The notes beneath the pieces are model-generated. The model was not told the DNA's origin, did not search any database, and saw only the letters and a program-made list of their open reading frames with translations. A program made the translations under genes and the position numbers. This document shows positions 5,761 through 62,788 of a DNA stretch of 64,000 nucleotides, in pieces. Positions within the stretch are counted from its first letter, which is position 1, and each line of letters opens with the position of its first letter. Source of the DNA: Chrysomallon squamiferum (taxonomy: Eukaryota > Animalia > Mollusca); the NCBI GenBank assembly GCA_012295275.1, contig CM022670.1, forward strand, positions 23,126,001 through 23,190,000, written 5' to 3'.

Positions 5761-5831
5761 GTATTTGTCAATGCGAACGACAACGCGATGATCAGGATTG
5801 AAATGATAGCCAGTACCTGAAATGGAGGATG
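5761..5831 (+). promoter_or_regulatory. Intronic inverted complement of the Kv2 3' splice site and S1 codons (candidate ECS)
   Basis: 5778-5831 pairs with 8382-8435 (51 Watson-Crick, 2 G:U, 1 U:U); 5766-5776 pairs with 8440-8450. Confidence 0.85.
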
Positions 5832-7746: not shown

Positions 7747-8058
7747 ATGAAAGCGTGTCATCATTCATATTTCCAGTACTCCTTTCTGCTTGTGCTTGAT
7801 CAAATTTGTAACAGCGCTTCTGTTTTACTGAAAGCTTGTGTGAACTCATTGGTGTTTGAAATGGCAAAAATATTTTTACTTTTTTCCTCTCCTTCGTAAA
7901 TATCGGAATCTGCAGCGCAACAACATGTATACTACCTTCATTTCCTGTACAGCACACATTACCTGCCTGAACATTTTCTTCTTACCTTCCTTCCATCGTG
8001 ATCGTAATCTTTCTTCTGCCTCTCCTAATAAGCAGCTGTCACTGTTGCAAATATGCTA
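7747..8058 (+). promoter_or_regulatory. Degenerate collinear inverted complement of the Kv2 pore/S6 region (candidate ECS)
   Basis: Nested helices 7782-7811/9089-9117, 7901-7925/9041-9065, 7946-7963/9012-9029 and 8046-8058/8875-8888. Confidence 0.7.
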
Positions 8059-8396
8059 TCATTGCTCTTATGAGATGTCTAAGTCGTAACTTCAATGAAA
8101 TAAATCTCTAACTATTCTTTTTTATCTGGTGTTTTTAAATTTGCTAATATACCTTGTCAGGTTCTCACCTTTTGTTGTCTGTATTGTAAAAACATTCTTA
8201 TATGTAAACCAAAAATGTTGATCAAAGATAATTTTTGAAATTAAAATTATATAAATATATAAATTATAACAATGATAAACCTCGTATGTATTTGTGAACC
8301 ACATCAGTTTGTGATGCTCTATACAATATGGTTAAGATAATATTGTCAAGTTGGGCTGATTCCTTATGGTTTTCACTTGTTCATCCTCCATTTCAG

Positions 8397-9473
8397 GTGC
8401 TGGCTATCATTTCAATCCTGTTCATCGTGTTGTCGACAATCGCATTGACATTAAATACCATTCCGCAACTCCAGGAGCGGACAAACCCCATTGAACCTGC
8501 GGATAACGCCCGTCTTGCAATTGTCGAAGCTGTGTGTATAGGGTGGTTCACACTGGAATATTTAGCCAGGTTTTGGGCGTCCCCAAATAAATGGAAATTT
8601 TTTAAAGGCCCATTGAACGTAATCGATCTGTTAGCCATTCTTCCGTATTTCATATCTTTAGGTTTGACTGAAACGAACAAAAGTACTACAGAACAGTTTC
8701 AAAATGTGCGCCGTGTTGTACAGATATTTCGAATTATGAGGATTCTAAGAATTCTAAAACTTGCTAGACACTCCACTGGTTTGCAATCCTTAGGCTACAC
8801 TTTGCAAAGAAGCTACAAGGAGTTAGGATTGCTACTAATGTTTCTTGCCATTTCAATCCTTTTATTTTCTAGTTTAGCATATTTTGCAGAAAAAGACGAA
8901 CCAGAAACAAAATATAAAAGTATCCCAGAGACATTCTGGTGGGCAGCAATCACCATGACCACTGTGGGATATGGTGATATTTATCCCAAAACTGGTCTTG
9001 GCAAAATTGTTGGTAGTGTGTGTTGTATATGTGGTGTTCTTGTTATTGCTTTGCCGATTCCTATAATAGTGAACAACTTTGCTGAGTTTTACAAAGATCA
9101 AATGCGCAGGGAGAAAGCGTTTAAAAGGCGAGAAGCCTTAGAAAAAGCTAAAAGGACTGGCAGTATCGTGTCCTTTCATTCCATCAACCTGCGTGACGCC
9201 TTTGCACGCAATGTTGACCTCATTGAGGTCAACTCCCAAGGTCACAAAGAAGAGGGTTCTGATGTGTGCAGTGAACGAGAAAAGTTCGTTTCCAGTCCTC
9301 ATTTTGGTACATCGAAAAACAACGAGACGCAGGATCAGCCCGCTCGGGAGACCGACAGCAGCGATGGCACCCAGTTTAATCTGACCAACAGCAGCACCAA
9401 CAACCTTCTGGATACAGACGAGGAATCACTCAACAGAATGGCATCGCAGCCATTGCTGAATGCTCAGACTCAG
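8397..9473 (+). CDS. Shab: Shab/Kv2 (KCNB) voltage-gated K+ channel, large internal exon S1-S6 plus proximal C-terminus
   Basis: Acceptor tttcag|GTG and donor CAG|gtataa, 1077 nt, phase 0/0. Encodes S4 [21 protein letters not shown], filter TTVGYGD, S6 ALPIPII (Kv2-type PIP) and [24 protein letters not shown]. Confidence 0.96.
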
Positions 9474-11118
9474 GTATAATGATGTAGTTTTTTTTTTTAA
9501 ATTAGCGGCAGCATAATTCAGACATAACTCAAACATCTCTCATGTAATAAATTTGGGGCTTTTATTTTATTTTTTTTTAATATTCTTTATATTTTATTAG
9601 TTCTACAAGCACAGTCTATAAATTTCTAACACAAACTATTGATTTAAGTCATATTAAATAATTTATTATCATCATCATCATCATCATTACAATCAAATTA
9701 TAAATATTTTATTTTTTTTTATTTAAGTTTATTTATGTATATAATTTTTGTTTTGCATTGGGGTTTATATGTCTTTTTTTTAAAAATACATTTTTTTATT
9801 TTTTTTATTTAAATGTCAAATAACAAAAGCACTAAACAAGGCTGCAGCTCTCTGTTTCTCTGTTAAAGCAGATGACTCACAAATGACATAATCAACATCA
9901 GATCACTTAAAGTATATCTCTATGGAACATTTTCAGTAACTGAGACTCCCTAATCCTCTGAACACAGATCTCACAATGTCTCACTGCTAGTTTCAGCTTT
10001 TAGGATGACTGAGTTAACATTTAGTTGAAATACTAGAAACCATACAATATATAATTATTAATTAATGTAAAATATTTATATGAAAGCCATTACAGTTAAA
10101 AATTATATCATATTACCTGATTATTATTAAAAATTAAATGATCCTATGGAATCAACTGTCCATAAATGAGCAGGAGAAAATAAATAAACCTACCAGTTTC
10201 TTTATAATGTAATATAACATTATATATTTTTCTTTCACAAACCTGCTGGTTCAGAAATTTCCAACCAAAATATACCTCCATCTGCCTCTGAAAATATGAA
10301 TAGATGAACTGAATAGAAACAGCAATATTAGCTAAATGTGTAAGATGTAGTTTTCTTTCTTTTCTTAGAAAAGGAATAATTTTAGTGGATTCCAGTTTTA
10401 CAGTTTAGTTTAAAAATGGGTGCTGTTGTCTTATATAATAATAAATTTATATAACAAGTAAGATCTTCTCCCAGTTTTTAATGTTATTAGATATTCTGTA
10501 TTGTTATTCTGAATATTCAAAAGATTTGCTAATTTGTGAAAGTATGCCGACTTGAACTGATAACTCACAATTAGGTTATTGTTTAATGGCTGTTATCTTT
10601 GATGCTTATTCGAAATAATGTACATTAGTTTTATTTTAAGTAAAAAAATCAATAAATTAAAAAAAAAAATTCACAGAAATTAAATCAGGATATAGAAAAT
10701 ATTATTAGAAAAATGGATTTTGTTGTAAATATACTTTTGAATTACCAGTACCATGTAGTGTTTTTTGACTAACATTTTATATGGAGGTGTATGTACACAA
10801 ACACACACCATTTTACCCCCAAATAATCTTCTATCATTGGACATAAACATTTACAATGATTCAGTTAGTTGTTTATGTTTTTAAAATAACAGTGTTTTTT
10901 CCAATTGCTGGAAAAATTATACAAGAATGAACATTTATTTATTAAACGATACCTTTCTACTAATGATTATCAAATATAAGGTTGTTGTGTAATGATGTTG
11001 TTACTGAAGAATATAGTTACTATCCACTTCACTGGCAACAGATAAACTTCTGTTTTTTAATATATTTATCATATATAGAAATATATCATGACCATTAATA
11101 AGTCAGTTTTGAGTCATG

Positions 11119-11172: not shown

Positions 11173-14100
11173 TAAAGTCCTCTACTTGAATGTCAGGGAC
11201 ATGAGGTCAGCCAGCAATATCCGCTTTGTAATAACATTTTACACTAATCTTACATTTCTTTTTTTTTTTTTTTTTTTAACCCATGTCCAATCAATTTCTA
11301 GGCTAGTTCTTGCTTTTTTTTTTTTTTTTTCATTTTCAAATAAAATGTTCTTTCCTTTTTATGTATTTTTTTTACTGCAAATTAATATTGGAAGCTGTCT
11401 AATAGAGCAGATAATTAGATTATAATTAATCAAAAAGAAATGCTATAAAAAAAAAAAATCAAGAAAAGAAGAAAAAAAGCCTATTAATTCTGATTAAATC
11501 GTTCATTCTACCGTCAGGCATTTCCCAATTACTATAATTTTGCTCTTTCTCTTTTTCTTAAAAGATCTTATGAGTTACAGTAACGATTCATTCAGTCGAA
11601 AGTTAATATTTAAAAAGTACATATAATATATTACAAATAAAACATTTTGTGTATGTGTGTGTGTGTGTGTGTGTTTTGTGTTTTTTTTAAAGAAAGAAAA
11701 AATCTATTTCAAATTGTAAGTGCACAAACATGCACTTTAATGTGTTAGTCTATTATGGCTCTGTAACTAGAGACATGAATTATTCAGTGATTACACATAA
11801 TTATACACTTTTTGTTTCCATTTGCTTTTAAAGAAATTTCAGTACAAATAGATCATCATGCGTCTGCTTAGACTGTAAGATAGTCAAGTATAGACAAAAT
11901 ATTTTTCTCTTGGAGTCTTCATTCGTTGCTGCTAGGTGATTTTGTGCTCGATGCCTTGTATGGTCTTTGATAGATTTGAAACAAGGAGAAAGTATTGATT
12001 AAACTACAAAGATGTTGCCAGTTTACATCTCTAGACAGGAAACATAAGTACACTTAACATTTGCTACAGGGTTTTTCACCCAGATTTTCTGATCTCAAAT
12101 TAGTTTCTGTTCTTTCTTTCTTTTTTATTTTCTTTTTTCTTTTTATTTCCTTTTTTGTTGGAAGGTCAAATTCATTGACAGTTCATTGAACAGAACTATA
12201 TATTTTAATCTGAAAGATTTGTCGTTTATCTTAAGTTCAATACTGTTTGTCCTCTTGAGGTTAAATAGAGGTTTTGCATTTTATTTCTTTATTTTCCGTA
12301 AATACTGTTAAATAGTTAAGTAAAAACAGCTGTAAGTCAGTGATGATATATTGGTCATGTCACAGTTTGATACACTGGAAAATATTTTCTTTTATTTACC
12401 CTTTGCAATTCTTTTTCAGAATTAATATTCTGACTGTGACAAAGTGCCTGCTTGGTTTATTAGTCAAGTTTTTACTAACAAGTTACCTCTGCAGTGATAC
12501 TCGCTGTCAAGAGATCTGGTCTGAGCCATGGTACAAAGCTGGATCAGTTGATAGTATGTCTGACATTCCATGATTTATAAAATACTCAGGAAACTGAACA
12601 CACTTACAGACAGAAGTTTTTACTTGGTTTTAACACACAATGTTCAGAAGTCTCAGAGTATATAAGACTAGCTCAGATTTGAAATAATCATTCAGCTTAC
12701 AGATTAAACATTCATTTTCCTTTCCATTATTCTTTTTTCCTTTTGCTGTGGTGAAGCAGCAGCAGGTTTCTTCTCTAGTATAAACAAAATCATTCAGCTT
12801 ACAAATCACACCTTAATTGCTCATTCCAACGTGGCTTTTATTCCATTTTTATTACCCAAGTTTTAATATTTTCCAAAACATAGTCAGTGAAATGACTGAG
12901 TTGGCTGCTTGCTGCATCTGTTACAAGAAGTGAAAAATTTGCTTTAAACATTTCATGAATACTAATCTATATACTGGCGCCAGGAAAATTAATGAAGTTA
13001 TCTGAAGAACATCCTCTGTGGGAAATAAAAAAATTAATTCATAAATATTTAAAATGAACATTTGTTCAAGTAATATAAAATGCATACTGTAATTGGGGCT
13101 GTAGTGGAATGCATTACTAATTTTGTCATGAAAAAAGAACAGCAAGAGTATGATTATATTAACTAAAAGTAGTGATTTGAATGAGTTCCAGTTCTTCAGT
13201 AAACTGTTTATATCTTTAGACAGGTTTATCTTTTGTCTTAATTTTTTATTACAGTTTAGTCAAAAAAATGCTTATTTTATGCTGTTTGTTGTGATTTGTT
13301 TTTTGTTTTTAATTTAATTTTTAATATATTTTTTTTTTATTTATTCATGTTTCTTTGTTGATTTGTAATTTTTAATTTATTTTTATATATGTTTTTTTTT
13401 TTCAGCTTAGTGGATTAACAAAGAATTTATCAAATATTATGCGCATTTAAATCTAATTTCATTAATATTTTTTGATTCCTAATAAGAAGAAATTGATTTA
13501 ATATAATCCCCATTTTTGTTTTTTTAATATTGTAAGGAAAAAAAAAAAAGAAGAAGAAAAAGAAGAAGAAGAAGAAAGAATAAATAAATAAATAAAAAAA
13601 CATAGATATAAAATAAAACAATATATCACAAACAAAAACCCTAAATGAAGGCCCCTAACTAAAGTATATTAAATTTATTCTCCCCACCCCCATAAATATG
13701 TTGCAGATGCTATGAGACATTATTGTTCAATCATGATATATTTTGAGTGTTTGAAAAACAGGCAATATTTTCTGAACCAGCTTGTTTATGGAATTGAAAT
13801 GGTATGAAATAGTAAAATAATTATGAAAATTAGTGCTAAGATGAGGGCAACAACAATAAAAACAAAACTAGTGTCATTTACATTCTTTTTTCTTTTTTTT
13901 TATGACTTTTAAAATTAAAATCGATTATTTAAGATTTTTTTGGTTGAAAATCCAGGCATGAAAACAATAAATAACTAAACAAATAAAAAGGAGAAAAAAA
14001 AAGATGAAAAATAACGAGAAAATAAACAGTTTATTTCTAACCTTATTTTCAAATGACAACAACATCACTTCCAACAAAAATAACAACAGGAAGCTGATAA

Positions 14101-15065: not shown

Positions 15066-17248
15066 ATTGTTGCCCTGTTTAATGTAACTGTCATTTGTTA
15101 GGCTTAACTGTGAAAGACTGTTCAGTTAGTCACGTTCTCTTTATGTCCTCTTTAGATGAATCTCCCTACTTTTTTACAGAATTGTGGGTGGAATGATGGT
15201 AATGAATCACTCTAATAGCTGTCAGTTTCACGTTTGTGTTTTATGCCAAGATTCAGAATTAGGTTCAACAACCGTGGTGTTTGCATAACAAAAGAAAACA
15301 AAAACGATGAAGTTTTTATCTTTTTTAAACACTTCAACAAGCAAAAAAACAAATCAGTCTGTTTGAAAGGAACTTAATTCTACTGAATATTCATGCTCAC
15401 CAGACTCTGGCACAATACAGAAGTCTGTGCTGTCAAGCTTAAAGAGTGTGAAGTATTTATTACAGAGAAAAAAAAAAAAAACGTAATCAATTATTTTTGG
15501 ACAGGAAAGAAAGAAATATTTTATTTAATGATACACATTTTTAATCTATGATTGTTGGGAATTAATCATTTGGATAAGTTCCAGAAAAATAGAAAACCAA
15601 TCTGAAGGGCTACTTTTTATTTTATTTTATTTTTTTTACTTGAGAGAAACATAATTTCATAAGAATATTGTACTTATCTTCATAATTATGAAGCACGAGG
15701 TTTAAGAGGAAAGTGCTAACTGGGAATGATGATCCTGCCATTGATCATGCAGTAGACTCTTGAATAAAATCTAAAATAGGACAAATTACCCTTAGTATCA
15801 CATTGCATGCTGATATAATATATCTTTCTAAAATCTCATTTCAGTTTGTGATTAACATATGTAATTATTTTATTAAGGCCTCAGAAAGGAAATGCCTCAG
15901 TGTGAAATTTTACAGTTTTCAGAATCTCTGCAAACAAACAGTGTCTTAGTATGTACAAAAATCAATATTAATCTACGTGAAGATTTACTTTCTATCAATT
16001 AACTGACTCTGAAAATTTACACTTTAAAAGCAGAGGTGAATAATGAACCAGTGTTTGGATGGAGTTCTCCATGTGAAAGGTCAAACCATTGACATGAATC
16101 TACTAACTAGAACGTGAAACCTTTGACTCTGACAGGTTTGTAAAGAGAACAGAAATTTTCATTAGCACACACTGATATAACTTACAACAAGGTTTGCCCT
16201 AAACTTTATTGCCTGGTATAGTCAAATTCTTTAGAATGGAGATGGTGTAAAGGCACCATAGGAGGAAATTAGCATTGATTACATTCTCATTTTAAAGCTA
16301 TTTGGTCAAATGGTGATTGGTCAATATCTATTTTAACTGACCAAATTTAATTCTAAAACTGTTAGGCTGTTACTTGAGAAAATGGAAAATTGTCTTCTAA
16401 AAGAAGAAAGGGTATTGACCTTTGAAATTTGATGATAAAACCTTTGGAAAATGCCAGCTTATCAATAAAAAACAAATTTGAGAATTTGATCAGTGTAATT
16501 GCTATAGCAATCTGATTTCCAAACAGTTCACTTAACTGAAATGATATTTTGTTTTATTTAATTATAGCAGAAAAACAGAAAGCTGCAATGCCTTGGTATT
16601 AAAATTTTAGAAATTTTGTAGTCAAACATTATTTTTTCATATAGCATAACTGTTTTATTAATTATATTTGAATAAGTTTACAATGAATTATAACAATTTA
16701 AAGCAACAGTTCTAAGCAGATTATATCCCCCCCCAAAAAAAAACATACACAAAAACAACAACCAAACCAAACAAACAAAAACAACATCACATTTATTACC
16801 TTCAACCAAAATCTAAGTCTAAGCTGTGGCCCAGACAATAATTTTGATCCTGATATTTTCAAATTATCTTTGTTACATTTATTTCACCTTATAACCTTAT
16901 TTAAAATTTTAACAAATTTTATATTTTTATTTTATTATTATAAATTATTAGTTTTTTGGGGGTTTTTTCAAACAGAAATGAAACCATTCTATTATTATTA
17001 TTTAATATTCTTCTTCTTCCTTTTTAATTTAATTTTTGTTTTCTTTCAATCATTTATTCCTGTTGTTTTATTATTTCTAATACTGGAAAATATGTATGCG
17101 CTGAATGTTAAATTCTCTTCTGTAGTTTATAACTTGCCTCTCTTGGGTTGGAATTTTTCAGTCTCCATCAGACACTGATAGATTTTGTATTCGTGACTCG
17201 AGGAATAGAAAACCAACACGAGTGACACCTTATCACTGAGTCCGCAAA

Positions 17249-17295
17249 AACGACACCACCTTTCGAAACCTTTAACTCTGATCTTTATGAACTCC
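17249..17295 (+). promoter_or_regulatory. Intronic inverted complement of Kv2 exon positions 18700-18744 (candidate ECS)
   Basis: aacgacaccacctttcgaaacctttaactctgatctttatgaactcc against exon reverse complement aacgaaaccgcctttcgaaactttaactttggttttatgaactcc. Confidence 0.8.
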
Positions 17296-18133
17296 GTTTT
17301 TCAAAAACCTTTTAGTTACATAGATATAAATTTTTCTTAATCCTTGAATGAGAGATTATTCTGGAAAGAACATTTCGACCCATTGATAATTTATCTGGTG
17401 TTTTTAATTATCTTGCATCCACTGGGTGTGAAAGAAAGTGAGTAACATTGCACAATCTTTGACAAATTATCTGTGAACACTACTGTACTTTACTTCATCT
17501 TTTTTCTTCTTTTTTTAAAAAAAACAACAACAAAAAAACCTTTAGTAATTCTTTAACAGGTACAAGTAATAAATACATTTTTATCTAATGACAATTGCAG
17601 ATTCTCTCACTTCATGAGACAGATTTCAACAGAAATTGTTCATCTTCTCCTTCCTTGCCATTGGTATGCAGAATAGTAAAGTAAAAACAAACAACAACCA
17701 AAAACAAAATCATAAAAAGGAAAAAGGAAAAGAAAAAGAAAAAGAAAAGGAAAACACTAGAATTCCTTAGTATATTTAATTTTTAAAAAAGAAAAAGAAA
17801 AAGACAAATATTAATTTAAAATATTAAATTATAAGTGTCTGTGGAGAACAAAAGTATTTGATTTTTGTTCATAAATTTCAGAATGATTAAAACTTTCCTT
17901 TTGTACTGTCCTCCATTATTTTGGGTTTTTTAATGTAATAATTTTTAAAATGGAAATTGGTAACAGATACATGCATAGATTTAATAAGTTATTTATAACT
18001 GCACATTCGCTGGGACATTATGTATTCAATTGCAATGTTTTTCAGTGTGATCATACTGTTTGTTGTTTATGCAGTTGAAACTGTATTAATAACTACATTA
18101 CATTAATTGCTGTGATTTCTTTATTGAATTTAG

Positions 18134-18824
18134 GGTAGGTATGACCCAGTGCTGCCAGATAAAAGTTGCATCGAAATGAAACAGCTTCACCGCCAAACGA
18201 GCTCAACTAGCACAGACACATATGCCAGCTGCACGACCCACCCCCAGGACAGTCCCTCCAATCTGGCTCAGCCCATCACCACTGACAGTCCCAAACACAA
18301 TCTCTATGTGAACCCTCTTGACGCCCCTTCTCGACTGTCTAACCCTCCTCAGTCACACTGCCCACCGTTTCATGGCCATTTCAACGATTTGCATGAGTAT
18401 TACAATAGCCAGCAGCAAGAGACTGGATTTAACAGACCGAGTGTTCAGTTCTGCCCTAACCAAGTTGTTCAGAAACTTGACAGTGGCTTGACGACGACAT
18501 GGGAGTGTGAGAATCTCGTACCCAATCCTTCACCGACAAGTGACTCGGGAGGTGTGGTGAGGCAGCTCCGCCCGACTCTGCCTCCTCCAAAGAAATCCAG
18601 CTTTAAACGATACAAATCATTATCCGTGGAGAAACATCCGCGGTTCGCAGATATCATTAATGAGAGAAACTGTTCTTCCACGGACAATCTCCATTCTCAG
18701 GAGTTCATAAAACCAAAGTTAAAGTTTCGAAAGGCGGTTTCGTTGGCAAATCGTCTGCATGCAAGCAGTCCATCAACAGGCAGGAGGCTTGCCAACTATC
18801 ACCTTATAGCAAACACAAAATCAG
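18134..18824 (+). CDS. Shab: Kv2 C-terminal exon containing a PRC/FFAT-like motif
   Basis: Acceptor tttag|GGT in phase 0 matches the previous exon; donor TCAG|gtaaga is phase 1. Open, GC-elevated, Ser/Pro-rich frame (ORF 18149-19036). Confidence 0.85.
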
Positions 18825-21591: not shown

Positions 21592-24353
21592 CATCATTAA
21601 CTTTGCATTCCTCACCAAATTATCTTGCAGATGAAACTTTTCTACTCAACTGAAGAGGTGAGTGGTGTAATTCGCAAGGAAGGGCGCTTCATGTAATGAC
21701 AGAGCACATGCACTGGTGTGACCTGCACAAGAGCAAGTAGTAAAAAAATTCCCCCAACCCAAAATGGAGCACCAGCTAATAAATTAACTTTTATTTCATT
21801 TTTTTTTTTTTAAACAAAAAAACAAAACAAAAAAACATTATATGTAATCATAATTGCATGTAAAACAAATGTATGTGTAAATCATGGTATATGTATGCAT
21901 ATATACCATGTTAAGGACAAATTAACTAATTTTTCATAATAAACAAATACTTTTACAAACAAAACTATATTGACATAAGCTCTGCAGTTCACCAGGGTAT
22001 TTTGGCTTGTTTCAAACTCCTGCGAACTAAATGTGCTTTTGGCTTCATTCGTCTAGTGTACTGGTCAAGCTGTAGTATGCCTTGTGAATATTCATGGGCT
22101 TTTTTTTACATCACAGTTGCGCTCCGGTTCATTGTTGTAGTTCTTTAGAACACCCCTGCCCACCTCCCCCTCTCTGCTTGACCATGTCTTTCCCTCACTT
22201 CCACAGCCGTTCACCTCTGCTTTTGTGATGGTCACACCAGTCCAGCGGTCCACCTCCCCTGTCCACCCGCCCAGCCAGTCCACCCTGACACCATACTTGC
22301 TTTACCACTAATGTCTTATATATATGTAGTTAATATAATACATTTTCAAAAATGATTATTAATTGCTGATCATTGATGTTATTGTATTCTGAAAAACGGA
22401 AATATAATAAAGTCATTTGTATCAGAAAAGAACAGAGCTGACATTAAGTAAGCTAAATTCATAATGAGAGCATTTCTCATGTTTAAAAATTGTTAAATTA
22501 CTAACATGAGTGAAATAGATTAACATGATGACAAATCCAGAAAAAGTTAATATAAAAATTTAATTCAAAGAAAAATAAATTTGGTGTGAATTATAAAAAA
22601 GTTTTAAATCATTGAACACTTGAATTCAATTTCTCAATTATTAATTATCATTTTTTAATTTGCATAGTAATAAAAGAAATGTAGCTATGCTAAGTAGTGC
22701 AGTTTTGTGTAGTGTTGCTTAAAATAATTAAAATAAAAACAAACAGTATTCCACTTTTCAGTACTTTATGACTTTGGACATCGATGGTGGGTCAGACACA
22801 AATTATTAAATAAAATATTTGTTATTCACAAACTAAAATAGATATATTAAATTAATAGTGCTTCCTTTGCTTTGAAAAAACATTCCGCATAGAATGAGAG
22901 ATCTATCACATTGATTCAGATATTTGACTTCAGCAAATTAGCATTTTTATACATAATCTTTCAGCAGACTTTTTATGTATAATTTCATATTCATTCAACA
23001 AGATAATCTAATATCCTTTCTTCATTTTCTGTTTTTTTTCTGTTACTTTTCAATTTTCTTAATTTTAGAAACTTTGCAAATGTATTAAGTAAATAATACA
23101 TGGGGATCAAACAGATATTTAGCAGTTTTTATGTTTGTAAAAACAATTAGTTTAATTATTTTCTTTAATAAGGCATTCAGTGTTTTAGAATAATGCAAAA
23201 TAACTATGAGCAACAGGTTTGTAAAACTTTAAAACAAATTTATTTATTTATGTATTTATTTATTTATTATATTTTTTATGCATGTTATGCAAATTCAGTG
23301 TACATGTTTCTTACTCTGTTGAAACTATAATTAATTTTTTCTGTACTGACTATCTTAATACTAGGAATTTTGTTTTTAGTGTAAAGTTATCTCAAGATTG
23401 TCAGGAATCTAGTTTGGCCACAGATGGTTAATCAAAAACTGAAATCTCTTACTGCTAACTGATAGAAACACCTTGCAGAGTGACATCAGCTTATCAGCAT
23501 AGTACAAATTCATATATTCTGCAATTAATAATAGTTGTCAGTACAAATTAATTCACAGTTTTGTTAAATAATCATTCAATCTTTGACAAGTGGTAAAAAT
23601 GTTTATCATTTACATTGAATTAACATCTCATTTTCTTTATTATTAATTGCACGTTTGAGTTGATACAAATTGTACCAGATCCTCTGAGACTGAAAATGTT
23701 GTACCTGTTCTGGCCTAACATCTTATGTCCCTTCCTTTTTGTCCATCCTCTCATCTTCATTGGTATTAACAAGGTGAAGGAGGAATTCCACAAAATGTAT
23801 TTCTGTCATAAAGTTATTGTACCTTTTGCTATATGAAATATTTGGTGTCTGTTGTTTAAAGCAATGATGTTGTTTATGAATGTACTTACTTGAAATTTTT
23901 CTTCAGATTAAAAACAAAACGGAAGAAAAATAAAGAAACTTAGAATCATTTCGCATAATTTAAATGACTGTATTTGTTTATTTTGATTAAATCATATATA
24001 TATATATTTAAATTTTAAAAATATTTTTTTTTGTTTTGTTGCAGTAATAATTTTTTTGAAGACTTGTTTTATTGAAGTTTTAATTTTATATCATATATTA
24101 TATATACATATATAATTTAATGATTATTAAAATTATTACAGTTTTGTATCTCTGGAAATTGAGCTTAATCTGATATCTTCATTTTAACTAGAAATATTTA
24201 TAATTTAATATACATATCACAGTATTTGTTTGACATTTATGTCACAGTTTTTTTTTATCATTGCTTTAAAAAATAACTAATAATAAGAATAATAATACAA
24301 AAAATATTTAACATTACTTGTCAGTTAAATCTCATTTCTTTGTTTATTTACAG

Positions 24354-25153
24354 GTTCTCTACCAAACAGCAGACACAACTTGGACCAGGTAAAACACGAA
24401 AAGCTGTCTCCTGTCCAGCGATCTAGTCCATGTCTGTTTGAACCTTCACCTGCTAAAAAAAGATCTATTTCAAAAAGAGATGCTTATGACTGTGAAGAAA
24501 CTGAGAACCTTCTTCTGGCTGCTTGCAGCCACGGTGAGTGTCCAGAGGTCACGCTTTCTGCCCGGAATGGAACTATTTGTGATAACAGTATATACTCTAA
24601 TTCAAAACTGCAGTACCCGAACAGTATCCCCAAACAGACTGCCACGCAATCAGGTGACCAAATTCAACCCACCACTCTAAAGTTCACGAACATCGAAGGT
24701 CCTGAGGATGACCATCAGCTGTTCTCACTGGGCAGTCCTGATCGATCAGAAGAGGACGTTGAGTTCAGTGACAGCATGGCGAATCATGCCAAAAACACCT
24801 TGCTGTGGAAAGCCAATCGTACGAGGCCGATGACATCACCAATGTACGACACAAGCCCGTCAGACAATTTGGAAAATGATGACAGTCTAATTTATTCAAA
24901 TTCTGCTGATTATTCTGCTTTCTCAGACTCCAGTCTTTCTGACCCAAATCTTCTGCGGTCTTCCCCATCAAGTGACCTGGTCAGTCGAACTGGGGGGAGT
25001 CGAACAAGTGGAGAGGACCACACAGTGAGTGTGTATGACACAGCTGAATCAGGGCCTCCAGACAGTGATTCTAACATGGACAGCACTGTTAATGTGATTT
25101 CCTCAGACGACAGTAGAGATCTGACTATAGTGTTTCCTGATTCTAGTGGATAG
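24354..25153 (+). CDS. Shab: Kv2 terminal coding exon
   Basis: Acceptor tttacag|GT completes the phase-1 Gly codon and continues in the frame of ORF 24380-25153 to TAG. Ser/Asp-rich tail. Confidence 0.8.
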
Positions 25154-43938: not shown

Positions 43939-44782
43939 GGTTCATTCCGTGTCAAATCACCCAATGGGTTAAACCCGACCATCTCAGATTTTTATCAAAC
44001 TTGGTATACTTGTTGACTGGGATCCCACAGCACCAAATCTGAAATTTTAGCCCAATTGGATCAGTGGTGTGGGAGATATGGCCCATGGAATTTTGAGATT
44101 TTTGGCAAAAATGGGCGTGACCACAAACCTTTGAACCCTCATATCTCAGGAACTACTGGGCCAATCTTCATAAAATTGGTACTGTTGAAAAGGCAATATG
44201 ACAAGGATTCCAAGAACTGAAGTAGGAAATAATCCAATTTTATGAAAGTGATGAAAACAGTAGAATATGTCTGGGAATGAAGGATACAGTGAGCATTTGA
44301 AACAGATGGTGAGAAGGTTAAGCATCAGAAACACCTAGTTCTCTCAAATTTATGTGAACTTTATCCATACATTTAGGCCTACAATGTCTTACTTGGTGAG
44401 ATGGTGATTCCTAGCATTCAGAATTGATCATTCATGTTTTAGTTAATCAGATGTTAATAATGGCTGAAAATGTATGTGTTTTTTTATATTGTAGCTAAAC
44501 AAAAATATTTACACCCAGGAAACTTTTATGTTTTAGCATTTTTTTAAATAAAGGTCATCTCAAAGTCCGTGATTGTTGGTCAGTTTCAAGGTCATAGCAA
44601 AGGTCAAAAAATAAATGTACAATATTTTCCAAACTGAACAAAAAGGAAATCCTTTATATGTTTTCAACAATACCAATTTTATGAAGATTAACATAAATGG
44701 GAGATTAAATCCCAGTTAAATAACCATGTTGTATAAAAATCTGAGACGGTCGGGTTTAAATTTCATCTTGACAAAATGACCC
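43939..44782. mobile_element. Non-autonomous TIR DNA transposon (MITE-like), possibly Sola-type
   Basis: Termini ggttcatt...aatgaccc; 27-bp subterminal inverted repeat 43969-43995/44733-44759 with one mismatch; AAAT on both flanks (4-bp TSD); no transposase ORF. Confidence 0.75.
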
Positions 44783-45903
44783 AAATGTATTATTGGATCC
44801 CCAAATCATCAATATATTTATTTACAATTTTTACATACAACTTCACCATTCATTTTTTTTACTTTGTAGTAATTTAATAAATTTTATAGATATAACAAAC
44901 CTAGGTAAATGTGTACATTATTTTATACAGCACAATATTTTTAAACCATTTTTTCAATTTTCCAAACTGAACAAAAAAGGCAGATTTCCTATCTACCTAC
45001 CTTCTCATATATATACATTGTCAAATATGCTCGAGTTGTTATTCTGTTTATGTTAGTATCGCACACAGGCCAAAGCACTTATAGCTATTATGCGTTTATG
45101 TTTCTGTGTTGAGTAAATACAAATGAATCAATGTTACATTTGTGCAAACATAAATTTAGCTTGAAAGCTGTTTCAGGATATTCTGTTGAAATTGTTAAAA
45201 TTAGGTAATTAATGATTTCCATTAAAGTTACAACATAACCAAACTAGCAAAAGCCTTGTGGTTGTCAGTAGATATGATTTATAATTAGAGACATGTTAAA
45301 AACAACAAATTTGTTTGAACAGGGTATAAATATTATTTGGTTGTTAAAACAAATAGCCATTATCAAATTAGGCCTGGCAACATATCTCAGTTTTTTGTCA
45401 TTATATGTTATTTGGTTGTTAATTATCAAAGAAACACAGACTATTTAAAAAACCTGTAGACCCTCGGTCACTTCTGTAATGACCCATTATATGACACACA
45501 TTATTAAAGAGCCTTGTCAATTAGGCCTCTGTGCTTGATTTGTTACACTCTTCCATAAAACACTTTATTCTTAAACTTTTATAACAGGTTCATGCTTGTT
45601 AAAATTAATTTAAATTTTTTATTCTGTATCCTCAGCTTAAAGAAACTGTTAGAAAGACTCTATTCCAGACTCAGTAAGTATATCATTAGTGTAAGAACTG
45701 ACCATGTTAGCAGTGTTTGATTAGCAGCAGAAATGATATTGACTGATGTTTATTTTTCATTGTTAAACTGTGTTAAAATCATATAAATATATATTATTTA
45801 TTATTTAGGCATGTATTTCATTTTCCTCAACATTCTTTGTGGTTTCTGTGAGACTGAAACAAGAAGGTTATATATATATATATATATATTTTATTATTTT
45901 TAC

Positions 45904-46059
45904 CTTGTCTTTACAACTCGACAGCATGCTAACCACAGACAGACAGACAGACACAACACTCAGGGCTGGTGACCAGTCATCAGTTAAAATTGAAAGACAT
46001 ATATGACCATTGCTGTACACATGTGGATGAACTGGGATGTTGGGACCAAGAAAAACAAC
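45904..46059 (-). CDS. UBE2W: UBE2W exon 4 with catalytic Cys
   Basis: VVFLGPNIPVHPHVYSNGHICLSILTDDWSPALSV; HPH in place of HPN is diagnostic of UBE2W. Confidence 0.96.
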
Positions 46060-46320
46060 CTGCAAAATAGTTACATATAAAACTGAGATTAATATTATAA
46101 TATCTCAAAACATAAAACTCCATAAACAGATAAAAAAATATTTTTCCATTTCATTTTCCTGATCATATTCTGTGATTTACTTTGGAAACAAATAGGTTTT
46201 TCTGCATGTGTTGCATGTGTACACTGTTGTTATGTATGTGAATCTTTATATGATTATTACTTATGGCTATTGTGTATATGCATGCATATAGCAGATAAGT
46301 GCATGTGTTTAACAACTCAC

Positions 46321-50530: not shown

Positions 50531-50718
50531 ATTTGTTTAGAAGTAGTTTCGTATCTTCTAAGATAATAACTTTTTAAAAGAAGATTTCAATAAAAATAGA
50601 CGAAATTATATATTTATTATTATTATATATGTATATACATTATATTAAAATGTATTAGCTATTATTAATAAATATTATCATACGAAACGATAATTATTGA
50701 CTTCACAAATTTTGCAAG
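50531..50718. promoter_or_regulatory. Shared divergent promoter and 5' UTRs of UBE2W and BPNT2
   Basis: 188 bp between divergent ATGs. Confidence 0.7.
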
Positions 50719-51042
50719 ATGGCACCAGTGAATGTCCGCTTGAATCCTTTTGGGATGGTGATATTTGTTTTAGCTACATTATGCATATTGTTTTATTTGT
50801 TTGGTCTTCCATGGTTTTTTCCAGGAGAGCCTCGGGTCAGTATGAGAGAACTGTTGTCAGTCAGCATCGTGTTAGCACAGCGAGGTGGCATTATTGTACG
50901 CGAAATTGCGAAGAACCATACACTCAATGCAAAACAAAAAGGACTGACTGACGAAGGAAAGAAAGAATTATTGACAACAGGAGATATGGAATCACACAAA
51001 GCTATATATTATGGATTCGCAAAGGCGTACCCAGGAATGCAG
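50719..51042 (+). CDS. BPNT2: Golgi PAP phosphatase (IMPAD1/gPAPP) exon 1
   Basis: MAPVNVRLNPFG plus hydrophobic signal anchor, KGLTDEGKKELLTTGDMESH; donor CAG|gtaata. Confidence 0.93.
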
Positions 51043-51151
51043 GTAATAAATTATCCAATAAATTAAATAGGAAGTTATAGAATTAATTATTCTATATTAT
51101 ATATAAAATCAAACCCAAAGTGAAAGTTATGAAACTATTAAAGCTAAACAG

Positions 51152-51186
<35 letters not shown>

Positions 51187-51287
51187 AGAGAGAGTAAAGT
51201 TGGATGGCAAGATATGAAAAGAAGGATTTAGAATATTATCAAAAGAGGGTAGCAAGAACACTGCAAAATTAATAATTTACATTTTAG

Positions 51288-51453
51288 GTAATTTCTGAAG
51301 AACATGACACTGAACCTATAAGTTTGTCAGCTATTCCTGATGTTAACAAGAAACTTGAAGAAGTTCAGAATATTATAAAAAGTGATCAGTCTATTCCAAT
51401 GAAGTCCATTTCAGTCTGGGTGGACCCACTTGATGCCACTCAGGAATATACAG
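51288..51453 (+). CDS. BPNT2: BPNT2 exon 2
   Basis: VISEEHD...VWVDPLDATQEYT, the IMPase metal-binding motifs. Confidence 0.95.
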
Positions 51454-51907
51454 GTAATAAGTGAAAGGGAAAAACACTGTTCTTTATGTGTTCAGTTGGA
51501 GGATTTAATGATACAAAGTACTTAAATAATTTTTTAAATGGGGAAAAGAAAAATAATAATAAAAAATAAAGAAAAATAAATAAATAAAACAAAAAGTAAA
51601 ATAAAAAGTAAATAAAATAAATACACAATCAGAATAAAATGGTACAAAATGTATACTTTAAGTCTTTATATATTTTTACAACAGTAAGCTGTTTTGAAAA
51701 GCTTATCCAGTTAAAAATATAGCTTATGTCATAATCTAGAAAATTATTTCTAAAATGTTTATTATTCAGAATTATTGTGAATAATGAAAACAGTTTATTA
51801 TAACCTTATTTATATTTAATTATCCTTTGTTTTGACAACCCTGTTGTAAATTTTTAATTCAACTAATAATTTTTATTTTAGAGTTATAAATATGTTTACA
51901 CCTTCTT

Positions 51908-51942
<35 letters not shown>

Positions 51943-51954
51943 TTTTATTTTCAG

Positions 51955-52053
51955 AGGGATTATATCAATATGTAACAACAATGGTGTGCATTGTGGTTAA
52001 TGGAGAACCAACAATTGGAGTTATTCACAAACCTTTTTCAAATGGAGAAACAG
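51955..52053 (+). CDS. BPNT2: BPNT2 exon 3
   Basis: [27 protein letters not shown]; phase 1/1. Confidence 0.93.
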
Positions 52054-52528
52054 GTATTTGTATTTTTCTCTTTATAGTTAGTTACATGATATTTCCATCA
52101 TATGCTTTACAAATATTGTTGTACATTACTTTTAAATGTGGAGCAAGCAGAGCTGAACAAAAATCTCGTCTCTTTTTGTTTCAATATTTTGAGTAATTCA
52201 TTTTAGACAAATTGCCTGGGGTGTTGTCTTATCAATCAATAAAAGAGAGGCAGCAGCTGGTGTCCTCAGATATCATCATTTTATACAAAGGATACACTCT
52301 ATGAGAAATAACAACTGTTAATTATAAAATCAATTAACACTTAATATAATACTTATTCATATATATGTACACACACACAAACAAATGTATACATGAACAT
52401 GCATACATAGAAACAGAGAGACATGAATACAGACATACATATACACACTTTGATGACTGAAATTTTTTGATGTTTTTGGATTTATATATCCTAAATATAA
52501 TCTTATTTTCTTTACATTGTATTTCCAG

Positions 52529-52699
52529 TTTGGGCTTGGGTAGGCTATGGACATTCCGCAAACATTAATAAAGCATCTGAGAAACCAGAAGGGAGTGCAC
52601 CAAAGATAATAGTATCACGATCTCATCAAGGAATGGTGAAAACAGTGGTTGAGAAAGCACTTGGAAAAAATGTTGAAGTTGTACCTGCAGGGGGAGCAG
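52529..52699 (+). CDS. BPNT2: BPNT2 exon 4
   Basis: WAWVGYG...IIVSRSHQG...VVPAGGA. Confidence 0.93.
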
Positions 52700-53077
52700 G
52701 TGTGTTCACAATGTTTGTTATTAATTAATTAGAAATTTTTGAAATGTATAATATTAAACATTTTGAGATAGTTTTTCAGACATTAATTTATCACAATATT
52801 TGTTTTCAGATGTATTTTACATGCTTATAACAGTACAAAACAGAAAAAAGAATTGAATAAAAAGACTAAACCAAATTTGCTGTTCAAAATTACTATTTAC
52901 TTTTTTTAATTTTCAAATTATTTTGTAACAGTTATTTATCAGTTCGCATAACCAGCTGATTTTATTTTCTTAAACATTTATGTAAGAAAACTGCACATTA
53001 TTTCAAACATTTACTACTTCCTGCTTACTGTAGAATGTTTGTGAGATAATTATATATCCATTACTTCTTCATTTCAG

Positions 53078-53346
53078 GGTACAAAACACTAGAAGTACTT
53101 AGAGGGAAAGCAGACGCATACATTCATGTAACATTAATAAAGAAATGGGACATATGCTCAGGGAATGCTATTCTCAGTGCTCTTGATGGCAAAATGACAA
53201 CTTTGGAAGGAAATTATCTTAATTATTCTCCAAGACTTGATGTCAAAAATGATAAAGGCCTTTTGGCAACAATGTATGACCATCATATGTTCTTAGAACA
53301 TTTAGAACCAGCCACTGAAGACTTAAGAAACAAGAAGAAAAGCTGA
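53078..53346 (+). CDS. BPNT2: BPNT2 terminal exon
   Basis: GYKTLEVLRGKADAYIHVTLIKKWDICSGNAIL...KKKS*; the five exons give 342 aa. Confidence 0.94.
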
Positions 53347-58600: not shown

Positions 58601-58957
58601 CTGAAAACCAAAATTGACAAGTTTAAATATGAAGTAAGACACTGCAAAAACTGGACAAGATATTTAAAATACGTTGCAAATTTATCGTTTTAAATAATTA
58701 TTTTAATAATAACTGGGGCATACACTTCAGAGCAATACACTTTTGTTGTAGTCAAAAGATTAACCCAATATGAATTTTGTTTCTCTGTTATTTTGATTAC
58801 TGCTTCTTGAACAAAATTCTAAAAACAACAACCAAAAACAAAAACAACAGTTAATATATGTACAGCGCTATCAAAATGTCCTAAGAATAAGTCTCAGAAT
58901 GAACCATGGAAGTAACCATCAAGAAACAAAGCAGTACACATGTAATAATATCTGTAC

Positions 58958-59107
58958 CTAGAGATCCACTGCTGTATGGTGTTCGAGGCAAAGTGTGACA
59001 AGGACTCTCCTGCAGTGGAGAAACATCACAGAATTTCACACTGCGATGACAGGAACGGCGTTTTCCTGATGAGGGTGGAATTTTCAACGAACTCCGCAGC
59101 AGTCTCC
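58958..59107 (-). CDS. DLGAP5: DLGAP5-like exon
   Basis: RLLRSSLKIPPSSGKRRSCHRSVKF...LPRTPY; phase 1/1. Confidence 0.75.
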
Positions 59108-59361
59108 CTGTTCAAAACAGAACAAGAAATCGAATAATTTGAGAATGCTTTCAGGATGTGTAATGTTATAAAAAAATAATAAAAGTGATTAGTGTATTTT
59201 ACATTTTGTAAATTCAATAAGAGAATCAAAAAGGAAAAAAGATAAAAATTAAAATTAAAATTAAAGATAAGTAAATTATAAATAAAAGTTTAAAAAATTT
59301 GCAAGAATAAAAATGTATGAAACTGCTAATTAAAACAATTACTAGTAACAGAAATATTTAC

Positions 59362-59489
59362 CAGTGTGTAAAGGAGAAACAGCATCAGATGGTTCCAGAT
59401 ATTTCTTAAATTCCAGACTGTTAATGTCAGGACCCAGTGATGCACTTTCTTCTTCATTCATGGAGCGATTTCTAAGTCGTAGACTGCGT
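59362..59489 (-). CDS. DLGAP5: DLGAP5-like exon
   Basis: RSLRLRNRSMNEEE...FKKYLEPS; phase 2/1. Confidence 0.75.
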
Positions 59490-59803
59490 CTAAAAATATA
59501 ACAATAGAAAACTGAATTTTTTTTATAAAACATTAACCAGCACTTACTATTTTAAATAAAATCTCCTAAAATAGTTAAATTATGTTTATAATACATCTAG
59601 ATTTTAATTTGGCTGTTCTTTACTAATCTCCAACTCTGGTTAACAATGTCAGAATAAAAAATACATTTTGAACTTTACTTTAGTTTTTATTTATTTCTGG
59701 AAATTTACTTACGACCTGATGATATCTCAGAATCAGATGCATTACAGAAAGAAGAAGAAAACAAAACTGCATAACCTTCATTATACTATTACAAAAATAT
59801 TAC

Positions 59804-60165
59804 CTTCTTGGTGTCATACACTTGGTTGGTGATAAAACAATACTGGAACTATTTGCTTCTGGTTCAGGAATATTTTCTTTACACTCAGCCTGTTCATCTA
59901 TGAGCTTTCTTGGAACAGCTATCTGTCCCAGTGCTATACTTTTCCGATGTGCATGCTTTGGTGTGATGTCTTTCAGCAGTGGACTAGGAACTGGTGGAGC
60001 ATAACTTCTGCGGTTGGGAGTTGCAGCTTAGCTGTAACACGTTTGACATAGAAGGTCGAGACACCTGTTCCTGTTTCTTAAAGCTGTCAGAGTTAGCTGA
60101 TGTTTTCAGTTCAGTGTCTTGCATTTTCACATCTGATTCACATTCATCTTTTGATTCAGGCACAA
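59804..60165 (-). CDS. DLGAP5: DLGAP5-like exon with an apparent +1 frameshift between 60027 and 59984
   Basis: Entry frame VPESKDECESD... stops at 59984; exit frame ATPNRRSYAPPVPSPLLKDITP is offset by +1. Confidence 0.65.
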
Positions 60166-60424
60166 CTAAGGAATAGTTTAAAAAAAAAAAAAAAAAATAA
60201 TAATAATAATAATATAAAATATATTTTGAAAAAATAATAACAAAGAAAATGAAGAAATAATTTTGAAGATGAAAAATGTGATTTAGAAATAATGAAAATG
60301 GAAAGCAACTAAGTAAGAAATGATCAACAAAATTAAAGGTACAAATTAACAAAGAAAATAAAGGCTGACTGGCGCTTTACGGTTTTGTAACTGCTATGAA
60401 GATAAAACAAACTGTATTTCAAAC

Positions 60425-60620
60425 CTGGTGTAAGAGAAGCTCGGCTTTTTATAGGACTGTGAACTTTAAAGAATCCTGCATCAAACACTTTGAATGTGTC
60501 ATCTGTTTCTCCACTGTTGCCACCTATGACACTCTGTATTTTCTTCTTCTTCATCTCAGCTCGGAAACCAGCGAATTTGGAAGCAACAGATTTTGCTGGT
60601 TTAGCAGCAACTGGTTTCTT
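60425..60620 (-). CDS. DLGAP5: DLGAP5-like exon
   Basis: Contains VFDAGFFKVHSP, matching the HURP motif FDAGFFRVESP. Confidence 0.88.
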
Positions 60621-61314
60621 CTGAAAATGATAATTGTTAAGTGTGTAATTTCTTGTTTCAAATCATGTAAAAAGACCCACTAAAACAGCCATGAGTGAAC
60701 TCTGGCCTACCAGGCTTTCTGAACAGCATGCCTAATATCATGAAGAATGTAACATTTTTTCAACAATAAATCTAAACATCCTAAATGTATGGGACATAGC
60801 AAATAGATTGTCTAAAAACAAAATAATACAGAAAATTATTCATGCTGAAACTTATGCAGTATACTTTTGTTCCAGACAACACTGATCGTTAGAAAACCAT
60901 TGTAGATGAAGACAGGTCACCTTTAGGATTCTGTTACCTTTAACAGTTTAATTTTATTCACTGCTTTAAGAATAGGCAAAAAAAGATTAGTTACTGGTTT
61001 TAGCTACTAAAGAAATATTATAACAATTTGTTTAATACATACACAATTAATATGTCAACCAAGCTGCCATAATTGACTTTTTGTTTTTAAAGAGCATGAC
61101 TAAAGAATATTACAACATTTATTCCCATTTTCATATGAACTGATTTATGAATATAAGAAACACAAATGTGTTAAATAGGTGAATCTTTTCACCAACTAAA
61201 TATTAAATTAAGAATTTGAAATAAAGATTTTTATTTCACTTTAAACATCAAAGAACAAGACAAAAATGTCAAATACTTGTTCTCATTTTTCTTATTTATA
61301 TAAACTGTAATGAC

Positions 61315-61410
61315 CTTAAGTATTTTCTTTTTTGGAACAACATTTTCTGTCACCCAGTTTTTATCTTTCTGCTTCTGCAGATCCTCAAATTTCTTGTCTA
61401 CATCTTTCAC
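61315..61410 (-). CDS. DLGAP5: DLGAP5-like exon, end of GKAP domain
   Basis: VKDVDKKFEDLQKQKDKNW; phase 0/0. Confidence 0.87.
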
Positions 61411-61544
61411 CTTCAAAAAGAAATAAATATAAAATACATGTTTAAAAAAATATAAAAATTTATGTATGTTGTATAGATATTTTCCTAATTATCATCACAC
61501 ACTAAAATTTAATGGCAAACAAGATGCAGTATTTTCAATTAGGC

Positions 61545-61597
<53 letters not shown>

Positions 61598-61632
61598 TAA
61601 AACTTCTTACACACAGAACTCCATAGCTATAC

Positions 61633-61793
61633 CTGATAATAAATCATGTCCCAAAATCCTTGTAGATCTGAGCAGGTCGTTTCTCTCTCACCACGTTTAA
61701 ACTCGCAGTCATCAACGAGACCACGAAACTGTTTGAATCTCTGATCTACCAATAACTGAGCCTGGCCTATCACTGTCCGAATCTGACCCTCAG
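61633..61793 (-). CDS. DLGAP5: DLGAP5-like exon, GKAP/GH1 domain core
   Basis: GQIRTVIGQAQLLVDQRFKQFRGLVDDCEFKRGERETTCSDLQGFWDMIYYQ. Confidence 0.93.
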
Positions 61794-62099
61794 CTGTAGA
61801 AGAAAAAAAAAAAAAAAAACATTCGTTAAGGAAATTAAAACTTTAATTTTCCAATTATTAACACCAATTTTGTTCCTGTTTAAAACATAAACCAGTTTGT
61901 TATTTAACAGTCACATCATATCATATTATTACAAACTAAATAATACTTTCAAATTATTATTATGGACTATCCAAACTGTAAATGTTATTTTTTGTTTTTC
62001 ATTTAAAAAAAAAAAAAAAAAAATTACAAAAAGGAATTAAAAAACATAAATAAATAAGGAAACAACAATGCTCAGGTTGGTGCAGAAAATGTAGCCTAC

Positions 62100-62246
62100 A
62101 TTCTTCAGTGATGGCAGAGTCAGAGTGGTCCATGGTTTCCCACTTCAAACAAGAATTCTGCAGACGAGCTGTTTCTGTTAACAACAGATCACGGAAATAT
62201 TTCACATCATGCTCTCCATTTGATTCTTCAGCTTCTTTTGAGATAT
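62100..62246 (-). CDS. DLGAP5: DLGAP5-like exon, start of GKAP domain (NAGNAG acceptor, alternative start 62249)
   Basis: HDVKYFRDLLLTETARLQNSCLKWE; acceptor aagcag. Confidence 0.88.
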
Positions 62247-62620
62247 CTGCTTTGTAAACAAATCAAACATATCATACTTTCAGTGATTTAAAAAAAAAGA
62301 AAAACAAACACAAATAGGACACAGCAGAAAAGAATAATAATAATAATGAAATAAAACAAAAAACCGTCAATTAATAGATGGTAATTACCAAGATGTTCAT
62401 TACAAATGTACTTCCAATATTTTGTTACATTCATAAATTATTATTATTAACAATAATAATACCTAACATTTTCAATCTGTCAGAAATTGCAGCAAGTTGA
62501 TATTAAGAAATAATGCAACCACACTTTAACAACTGTGCAATATGCAATTGTAATTTCATAGATGAAAACAATTATTAACAAGAAAAAGAAAATACAATCA
62601 ATTTAGTTTCACATAATTAC

Positions 62621-62788
62621 CCTGTGTATTAACATCTGTTGATGGGTCTACTGAGAATGTCTTGTCTGCAGAAACATGATTGTCAGTTATCACATTTACA
62701 CCAGTTTCACCATCTGGCTTTACAACATCTGGAATAACATCATCCAGGTCATCAAAATTGATTGGTTCTATTGTAATTTGGTGTTTTC
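62621..62788 (-). CDS. DLGAP5: DLGAP5-like exon
   Basis: Open phase 1/1 exon, PINFDDLDD. Confidence 0.75.

What the first reader, a model, noticed from the sequence alone, without database searches (positions are those of the whole stretch)
17249..18744. 45-bp intron-exon duplex over a C-terminal lysine cluster, predicting a K-to-E edit
Seen: 17249-17295 pairs with 18700-18744 at 41 of 45 exon positions with two bulged C. C17278 lies opposite A18716, the first base of AAG in EFIKP-K-LKFRKAV. Inference: editing would give K to E, and neighbouring AAA/AAG codons could give K to R or E, changing the charge of a polybasic patch in the cytoplasmic tail, outside the transmembrane region where the familiar Kv edits lie.
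Basis: partly seen in the sequence, partly recalled or inferred. Interest (0 to 1): 0.75.

Follow-up and report, generated by a model that had tools for sequence, protein, structure and literature searches.

The report
Intron guides for snail channel editing
A snail potassium-channel gene carries three intron stretches complementary to its own coding sequence, predicted to pair in the RNA and likely to guide editing; one, aimed at a site edited in insects and octopus, recurs in a limpet, a clam-like animal and a more distant invertebrate, while the flagged one over the tail lysines was found only here and showed no edit in the RNA contigs examined.

Summary
The inverted repeat is real (41/45, BLAST E 1e-8; 0/100 shuffles) and extends by a weaker second helix (17346-17397 with 18648-18696). 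It lies in a gastropod Kv2/Shab gene and targets a conserved tail motif. K-to-E is not shown. Contigs from three runs other than the probable source run read A at 18716 (low depth, tissue unknown, minor variants dropped). E occurs there in 0 of 61 ortholog motifs, and K-to-R at the three AAG codons is at least as likely. The gene has two more upstream-intron arms. One (5766-5831, 62/69) covers the splice acceptor and the S1 isoleucine recoded in octopus. The other (7906-7964) places a C opposite A9045, the S6 isoleucine edited in insects and cephalopods. That arm recurs in 4 of 4 loci tested, with double-sided pair changes and frozen synonymous codons. Best reading: an ancient editing guide plus two lineage-specific additions, of which the finding is one; editing itself is inferred throughout. 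No earlier scan note covered this DNA.

The parts
5766..5831 (+). Intron arm 1 (S1 arm), complementary to the splice acceptor and first 18 codons of exon A; seen only in this window
   Evidence: 62/69, E 1e-18; -114.8 kcal/mol; absent in L001, L003, L004
7906..7964 (+). Intron arm 2 (S6 arm), ancient predicted editing guide; C7921 opposite A9045
   Evidence: equivalent arm in 3 of 3 related loci that hold exon A
8382..8450 (+). Target of arm 1: acceptor AG plus S1 codons, including A8424 (Ile recoded to Val in octopus Kv2)
8397..9473 (+). Kv2/Shab exon A (S1-S6 and proximal tail); read-through stop at 9477-9479
   Evidence: Pfam Ion_trans E 1e-57
9011..9061 (+). Target of arm 2: S6 codons [17 protein letters not shown] with A9015 (S/G site) and A9045 (I/V site)
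17249..17295 (+). Intron arm 3, helix I (the finding); C17278 opposite A18716
17346..17397 (+). Intron arm 3, helix II (weaker extension); C17380 opposite A18663
18134..18824 (+). Kv2 exon B (cytoplasmic tail), present in RNA contigs and spliced to exon C
18648..18696 (+). Exon target of helix II (DIINERNCSSTDNLHS)
18700..18744 (+). Exon target of helix I (EFIKPKLKFRKAVS); candidate As 18710, 18711, 18716, 18717, 18722, 18723, 18731, 18732
21631..21657 (+). Conserved stop-bearing microexon (DETFLLN-stop), alternative end of the tail
24354..25153 (+). Kv2 exon C (last coding exon)

Best explanation
The flagged intron stretch is an inverted copy of part of the channel's tail exon that is predicted to pair with it in the unspliced RNA and likely lets ADAR edit tail adenosines in neurons, as one of three such guides in this gene. 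Shown: the complementarity, the exon's expression and splicing, and an equivalent S6 arm in four distant animals. Inferred: that the duplexes form before splicing; that ADAR edits them; that the tail arm arose by a local inverted duplication in this snail lineage; and that the products are a mix of K-to-R (18717, 18723, 18732) and, less surely, K-to-E at 18716 (about 0.25 for an edit of 10% or more), which would change the charge of a conserved basic motif.
For: Duplex far beyond chance. The same gene has an upstream-intron arm with C opposite the S6 Ile A known to be edited in insects and cephalopods. In 4 of 4 loci the best partner of S6 anywhere in the locus lies 0.4-1.6 kb upstream of exon A (best of 1987, 1722, 506 and 1366 windows), and 0 of 60 shuffles reach it in each. 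The C is invariant in the arm alignment and unpaired opposite the A in the lowest-energy fold in 3 of 4. Seven exon columns show double-sided pair changes. Codons identical in all four species: 7 of 17 inside the duplex versus 12 of 170 outside, p 0.0004. The S1 arm covers the Ile recoded in octopus. Among the 20 self-inverted hits at E<=0.01 in 64 kb, the two strongest that are not low-complexity both have one arm in a Kv2 exon. Three of 4 Lys codons in the tail arm are AAG against 5 of 39 elsewhere in exons A-C, each G matched by C in the arm (p 0.016, post hoc).
Against: No A-to-G difference anywhere in exon B in four runs; X1 (RNA, depth 12.8), X2 (RNA, 3.4) and X6 (kind unknown, 2.6) cover 18716 and read A. 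The tail arm is absent from L001, L003 and L004 (best z -3.2, -4.0, -3.5 against -10.4 here), and no synonymous freezing is seen there across four species. All four substitutions in helix I break pairing; none is a G-U wobble. E is at this position in 0 of 61 ortholog motifs. A18716 has only two base pairs on its 5' side before another mismatch. No mollusc-like Kv2 protein among those fetched shows Val at the S6 site; the six with Val are arthropod-like or named Caligus. The published strict recoding table has Shab rows only for ant, flies and octopus, not whole-body Aplysia or oyster.
Confidence: 0.55

Rival explanations
1. The tail arm is a neutral inverted micro-duplication of exon DNA that is decaying, with no editing or only trace editing; only the S6 arm is functional.
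For: Lineage-specific. It resembles the exon by identity rather than by wobble-rich pairing, and 0 of 4 substitutions in helix I are wobbles. Helix II is more decayed. No edit in contigs. CpG retention in the arms (5 of 7 by my count) is not decisive.
Against: Two independent such copies both hit Kv2 exons and no other gene of the window shows one. One covers an octopus edit site, although about 1 in 5 random 54-nt stretches of exon A would (my estimate). The gene has a conserved arm of the same design. AAG enrichment in the arm.
Confidence: 0.3
2. The duplexes mainly regulate splicing or isoform choice (short read-through form, microexon form, long form) rather than recoding.
For: Arm 1 covers the acceptor AG of exon A. 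The gene has alternative ends. A donor-sequestering duplex is known in fly paralytic (PMC4299485, passages).
Against: The tail target is about 570 nt from the acceptor and 80 nt from the donor and covers neither. The S6 arm has the A-C mismatch on a known edit site.
Confidence: 0.1
3. The inverted copies are an assembly artefact.
Against: The arms differ from their exon copies by 10-30% substitutions and small indels, and an equivalent S6 arm is present in independent assemblies.
Confidence: 0.03

Closest known systems
Shab/Kv2 S6 Ile-to-Val, Ser/Thr-to-Gly/Ala and turret Tyr-to-Cys recoding in insects and coleoid cephalopods (PMC6453909 passages and Table 2; PMC9989829 section 13 and Table S5 rows)
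   Same: Same gene; arm 2 covers the homologous I/V (A9045) and S/G (A9015) positions; arm 1 covers the octopus S1 I34V position.
   Different: Editing is not shown here. No partner stood out for the turret Tyr. The tail target has no reported counterpart in the octopus rows I saw. A 2009 paper says the RNA structures directing squid Kv2 editing were not known (PMC2606942, passage).
Intronic editing-site complementary sequences of Drosophila Shaker, paralytic and Syt1 (PMC2606942, PMC4299485, PMC5705066; passages)
   Same: Intron element pairing with coding sequence over kilobases, imperfect duplex; one arm also sequesters a splice site like the paralytic DCS; arms 1 and 2 cross, forming a pseudoknot topology.
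   Different: All three arms lie in the intron upstream of the target; the arm that masks a splice site masks an acceptor; the S6 arm spans several animal classes rather than one insect order.
Rfam RF00485 K_chan_RES (mammalian Kv1.1 I400V exonic hairpin)
   Same: Hit at 8964-9077, 72.8 bits, and in 3 of 3 related loci; same edited Ile.
   Different: The exon alone folds no better than shuffles (z 0.20, -0.26, -0.03, -0.53) and many consensus pairs are broken, so the hit reflects coding sequence; the stable partner here is intronic.

Membership tests
Kv2/Shab potassium channel gene | Six-TM Ion_trans domain and best similarity to Kv2 proteins | tested here: met
ADAR editing-site complementary sequence (tail arm) | Intron-exon imperfect duplex, more stable than chance, on the same pre-mRNA | tested here: met
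ADAR editing-site complementary sequence (tail arm) | A-to-G differences in RNA within the duplex | tested here: inconclusive
   None in contigs of X1, X2, X6; contigs drop minor variants and the tissue is unknown
ADAR editing-site complementary sequence (tail arm) | Conservation of the intron arm with compensatory change | tested here: inconclusive
   Absent in distant loci; close relative's DNA not delivered
ADAR editing-site complementary sequence (tail arm) | Editing depends on the arm | not testable with these tools
   needs minigene or genome edit
ADAR editing-site complementary sequence (S6 arm) | Conserved intron arm, compensatory pairs, depressed synonymous change, A-C mismatch at target | tested here: met
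   C opposite A in the best fold in 3 of 4, costs 5.5 kcal/mol in L003
ADAR editing-site complementary sequence (S6 arm) | A-to-G at A9045 in RNA of this animal | not tested
   no read-laying run left for exon A
Rfam K_chan_RES exonic hairpin | Stable hairpin within the exon | tested here: not met
   z near 0 in 4 of 4

The most novel reading that the evidence does not exclude
Kv2 S6 recoding is not a separate invention of insects and cephalopods but an ancient trait guided by an upstream-intron arm kept for over 500 million years in snails, limpets, bivalves and a more distant invertebrate; this snail lineage has built two new guides by inverted micro-duplication, one recreating the octopus S1 edit and one recoding the basic tail motif.
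Probability: 0.35. Interest if true: 0.72.

Novelty: new member of a known kind. Interest (0 to 1): 0.52.

Why it matters
Molluscs outside the coleoid cephalopods are described as having few recoding sites (PMC8382921, PMC10937787; passages), and the structures that direct cephalopod Kv2 editing were called unknown in 2009 (PMC2606942, passage). The S6 arm names a concrete structure and predicts a specific edit in gastropod and bivalve ganglia, which existing Aplysia or abalone neural RNA-seq could test at once. It bears on whether the shared Shab Ile-to-Val edit is ancestral or convergent. The two young arms, if edited, would show how new recoding sites arise in an already edited gene. The flagged K-to-E edit alone is a plausible but unproven single-lineage site.

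Tried and rejected
No whole genome is held. The close relative P0077 (86-90% identical; the conserved block differs by one N/S) returned no DNA, so the key conservation test for the tail arm is open. Viral and prokaryote collections held no relative. Of 7 related loci only L001, L003 and L004 hold the whole upstream intron; L002 and L005-L007 are short, and my window on L006 was out of register. X6 is identical to the window over 215 nt, so it is no conservation test. An in-exon hairpin over SLSVE/SSTDN, perfect in Patella and 12/13 here, has p 0.013 under synonymous shuffling but only about 9% pairing probability in this sequence: left as a weak lead. A possible extra exon at 17163-17240 has no homolog support. 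A Patella-only partner at exon A offset 180 is a loose AT-rich pairing. The tail motif has no Pfam, PDB or Atlas match, and AlphaFold gives a low-confidence, mostly unstructured model (pLDDT 54), so its function is unassigned; calmodulin-binding or PP1-docking likeness is recalled and untested. Scripts used an exon A start one base off; the frame-dependent parts were redone. Ten paper searches found no report of these arms; the library lacks most subscription papers. Supplements that may list coleoid tail edits could not be read: the PMC9068888 spreadsheet is too large and the PMC8382921 text held no Kv2 term.

Full report
Setting. The window is AT-rich animal DNA. The finding lies in a Kv2/Shab potassium channel gene on the plus strand. 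Exon A, 8397-9473, encodes S1-S6 (Pfam Ion_trans). Exon B, 18134-18824, and exon C, from 24354, encode the cytoplasmic tail. The best named relatives of exon B are Haliotis (61%) and Patella (56%), so the animal is most likely a gastropod. RNA contigs X1 and X2 join exon B to exon C.

Observation. None of 100 shuffles of the neighbouring intron reaches its energy. A second, looser helix follows in nested order, 17346-17397 with 18648-18696; 1 of 100 shuffles reaches it. Together they cover about 95 exon bases in the most conserved part of the tail. Helix II has its own A-C mismatch at A18663, which would give E-to-G in a poor 5'-G context (ADAR neighbour preferences recalled).

Is it edited? 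Six runs hold the exon; four were laid, all as contigs. X1 (RNA, depth 12.8) spans the exon, X2 (RNA, 3.4) covers 18707 onward and X6 (kind unknown, 2.6) covers 18515-18729. None shows an A-to-G difference; the only variant is one G-to-C shared by X1 and X5, the probable source run. This excludes majority editing in those samples only. The libraries are metatranscriptomic, the tissue is unknown, and contigs drop minor variants. Among 61 distinct ortholog motifs the K18716 position is K 36, S 12, R 11, T 2 and never E. In the Aplysia recoding rows I saw (29 of 44), 11 are AAG-to-AGG and none AAG-to-GAG; the 25 oyster rows have two of each. K-to-R at 18717, 18723 or 18732 is therefore at least as likely as K-to-E.

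Is the tail arm conserved? One Patella locus and six metagenome loci (6 of 79 pattern matches) were fetched. None has a comparable partner; only three hold the full upstream intron. Synonymous sites in the target vary among four species. The one close relative found gave no DNA. The arm looks like a lineage-specific inverted copy. Three of its four Lys codons are AAG against 5 of 39 elsewhere in exons A-C, where Patella and two bivalve-like loci mostly have AAA; this is a post hoc hint of selection.

Two more arms. The strongest inverted repeat in the window is 5766-5831 with 8382-8450 (62/69). It covers the acceptor of exon A and 18 S1 codons. The octopus Kv2 recoding site I34V (PMC9989829, Table S5 rows) maps to the Ile at A8424 inside it. 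It too is absent from the related loci. A weak hit in L004 led to a third arm, for S6. In the window, Patella, the bivalve-like L003 and the distant L004, the best partner of the S6 segment anywhere in the locus lies 0.4-1.6 kb upstream of exon A, and 0 of 60 shuffles reach it in each. L004 and the window suggested the site; Patella and L003 are independent checks. The arms align with an invariant C that sits unpaired opposite the Ile A in the best fold in three loci and costs 5.5 kcal/mol in L003. Seven exon columns show double-sided pair changes, from separate folds that lean toward pairing. Codons are frozen inside the duplex: 7 of 17 against 12 of 170. The duplex appears in both the minimum-energy and centroid folds of the 1.27 kb span. 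This Ile is the Shab I681V and octopus I240V site, and the duplex also covers the S/G site (PMC6453909, passages and Table 2). The Rfam K_chan_RES hit here is sequence-driven, since the exon alone does not fold better than shuffles. A caveat: the arm core is CA-rich, and dinucleotide shuffles do not keep CA runs; the comparison with all real windows of each locus covers this in part.

Mechanism. Each arm is transcribed before its target. Pairing would have to precede removal of the upstream intron (inferred). For exon A, arm 1 masks the acceptor and could delay splicing, as the donor-sequestering element does in fly paralytic (PMC4299485, passages); arms 1 and 2 cross, giving a pseudoknot topology. 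For exon B the target lies before the donor, so pairing can occur before the exon is defined (inferred). ADAR would then deaminate As in the imperfect duplexes, favouring A-C mismatches and AAG contexts (recalled). The tail edits would lower or reshape the positive charge of KPKLKFRK, a motif without a known family or structure.

Against the reading. No edit was seen in any RNA. The strict published table lists Shab only for ant, flies and octopus, not for whole-body Aplysia or oyster. No mollusc-like protein fetched carries Val at S6. A decaying neutral duplication explains the tail arm nearly as well.

Comparison and novelty. It works like the intronic editing-site complementary sequences of fly Shaker, paralytic and Syt1 (passages). 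Membership is met on structure, open on editing and on conservation for the tail arm, and met on conservation for the S6 arm. Cytoplasmic Kv2 edits are known. Ten searches found no description of these arms. Papers seen: PMC9989829 (passages, section 13 whole, Table S5 rows by search and one part), PMC6453909, PMC2606942, PMC4299485, PMC5705066, PMC10937787, PMC3391646, PMC8382921 and PMC9068888 (passages; supplements of the last two gave nothing readable on Kv2). Patton 1997, Bhalla 2004 and Ryan 2008 were seen only as citations.

Verdict. Observation confirmed; interpretation partly supported. New member of a known kind, interest 0.52. Most of the value lies in the conserved S6 arm found beside the finding, which makes a sharp prediction for snail and bivalve neurons.

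Noticed in passing
window 21631-21657; L001 about 13729-13755: Stop-bearing 27-nt microexon (DETFLLN-stop) conserved in Patella and matching the short isoform ends of Haliotis, Mytilus and Pecten proteins; skipped in contigs X1 and X2.
   Followed up: partly
window 9474-9479: Read-through of the exon A donor gives a short isoform ending TQV-stop, which resembles a class I PDZ-binding end (motif recalled); Patella has no stop there.
   Followed up: no
window 18203-18240: STSTDTYASCTT resembles the vertebrate Kv2 PRC/FFAT-like clustering motif (recalled); conserved across molluscs; outside the duplex.
   Followed up: no
window 18619-18688; L001 12088-12154: Same-register in-exon stem in this gene and Patella with two double synonymous changes; p 0.013 here but low pairing probability.
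   Followed up: partly
window 8121-8138 and 17390-17407: Exact 18-nt direct repeat, each copy in the intron ahead of a targeted exon and near an arm (E 0.001).
   Followed up: no
window 18660, 18672 and near 18786: The close relative P0077 has S where the window has N inside helix II; window and P0077 both have C and R where most molluscs have Y and K, changes of the A-to-G type fixed in DNA.
   Followed up: no
window 18199: G-to-C difference from the window in both X1 and X5 contigs: an allele or an assembly error.
   Followed up: no
window 43969-44191 and 44661-44759: Inverted pair of repeat-like fragments, probably a mobile element.
   Followed up: no
window 45871-46104 (-), 50701-53343 (+), 58900-64000 (-): Neighbouring genes: ubiquitin-conjugating enzyme, inositol monophosphatase family and GKAP-domain protein; none shows an exon-intron inverted repeat.
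   Followed up: partly
L001 9079-9390: Long palindromic element in the Patella intron before exon A.
   Followed up: no
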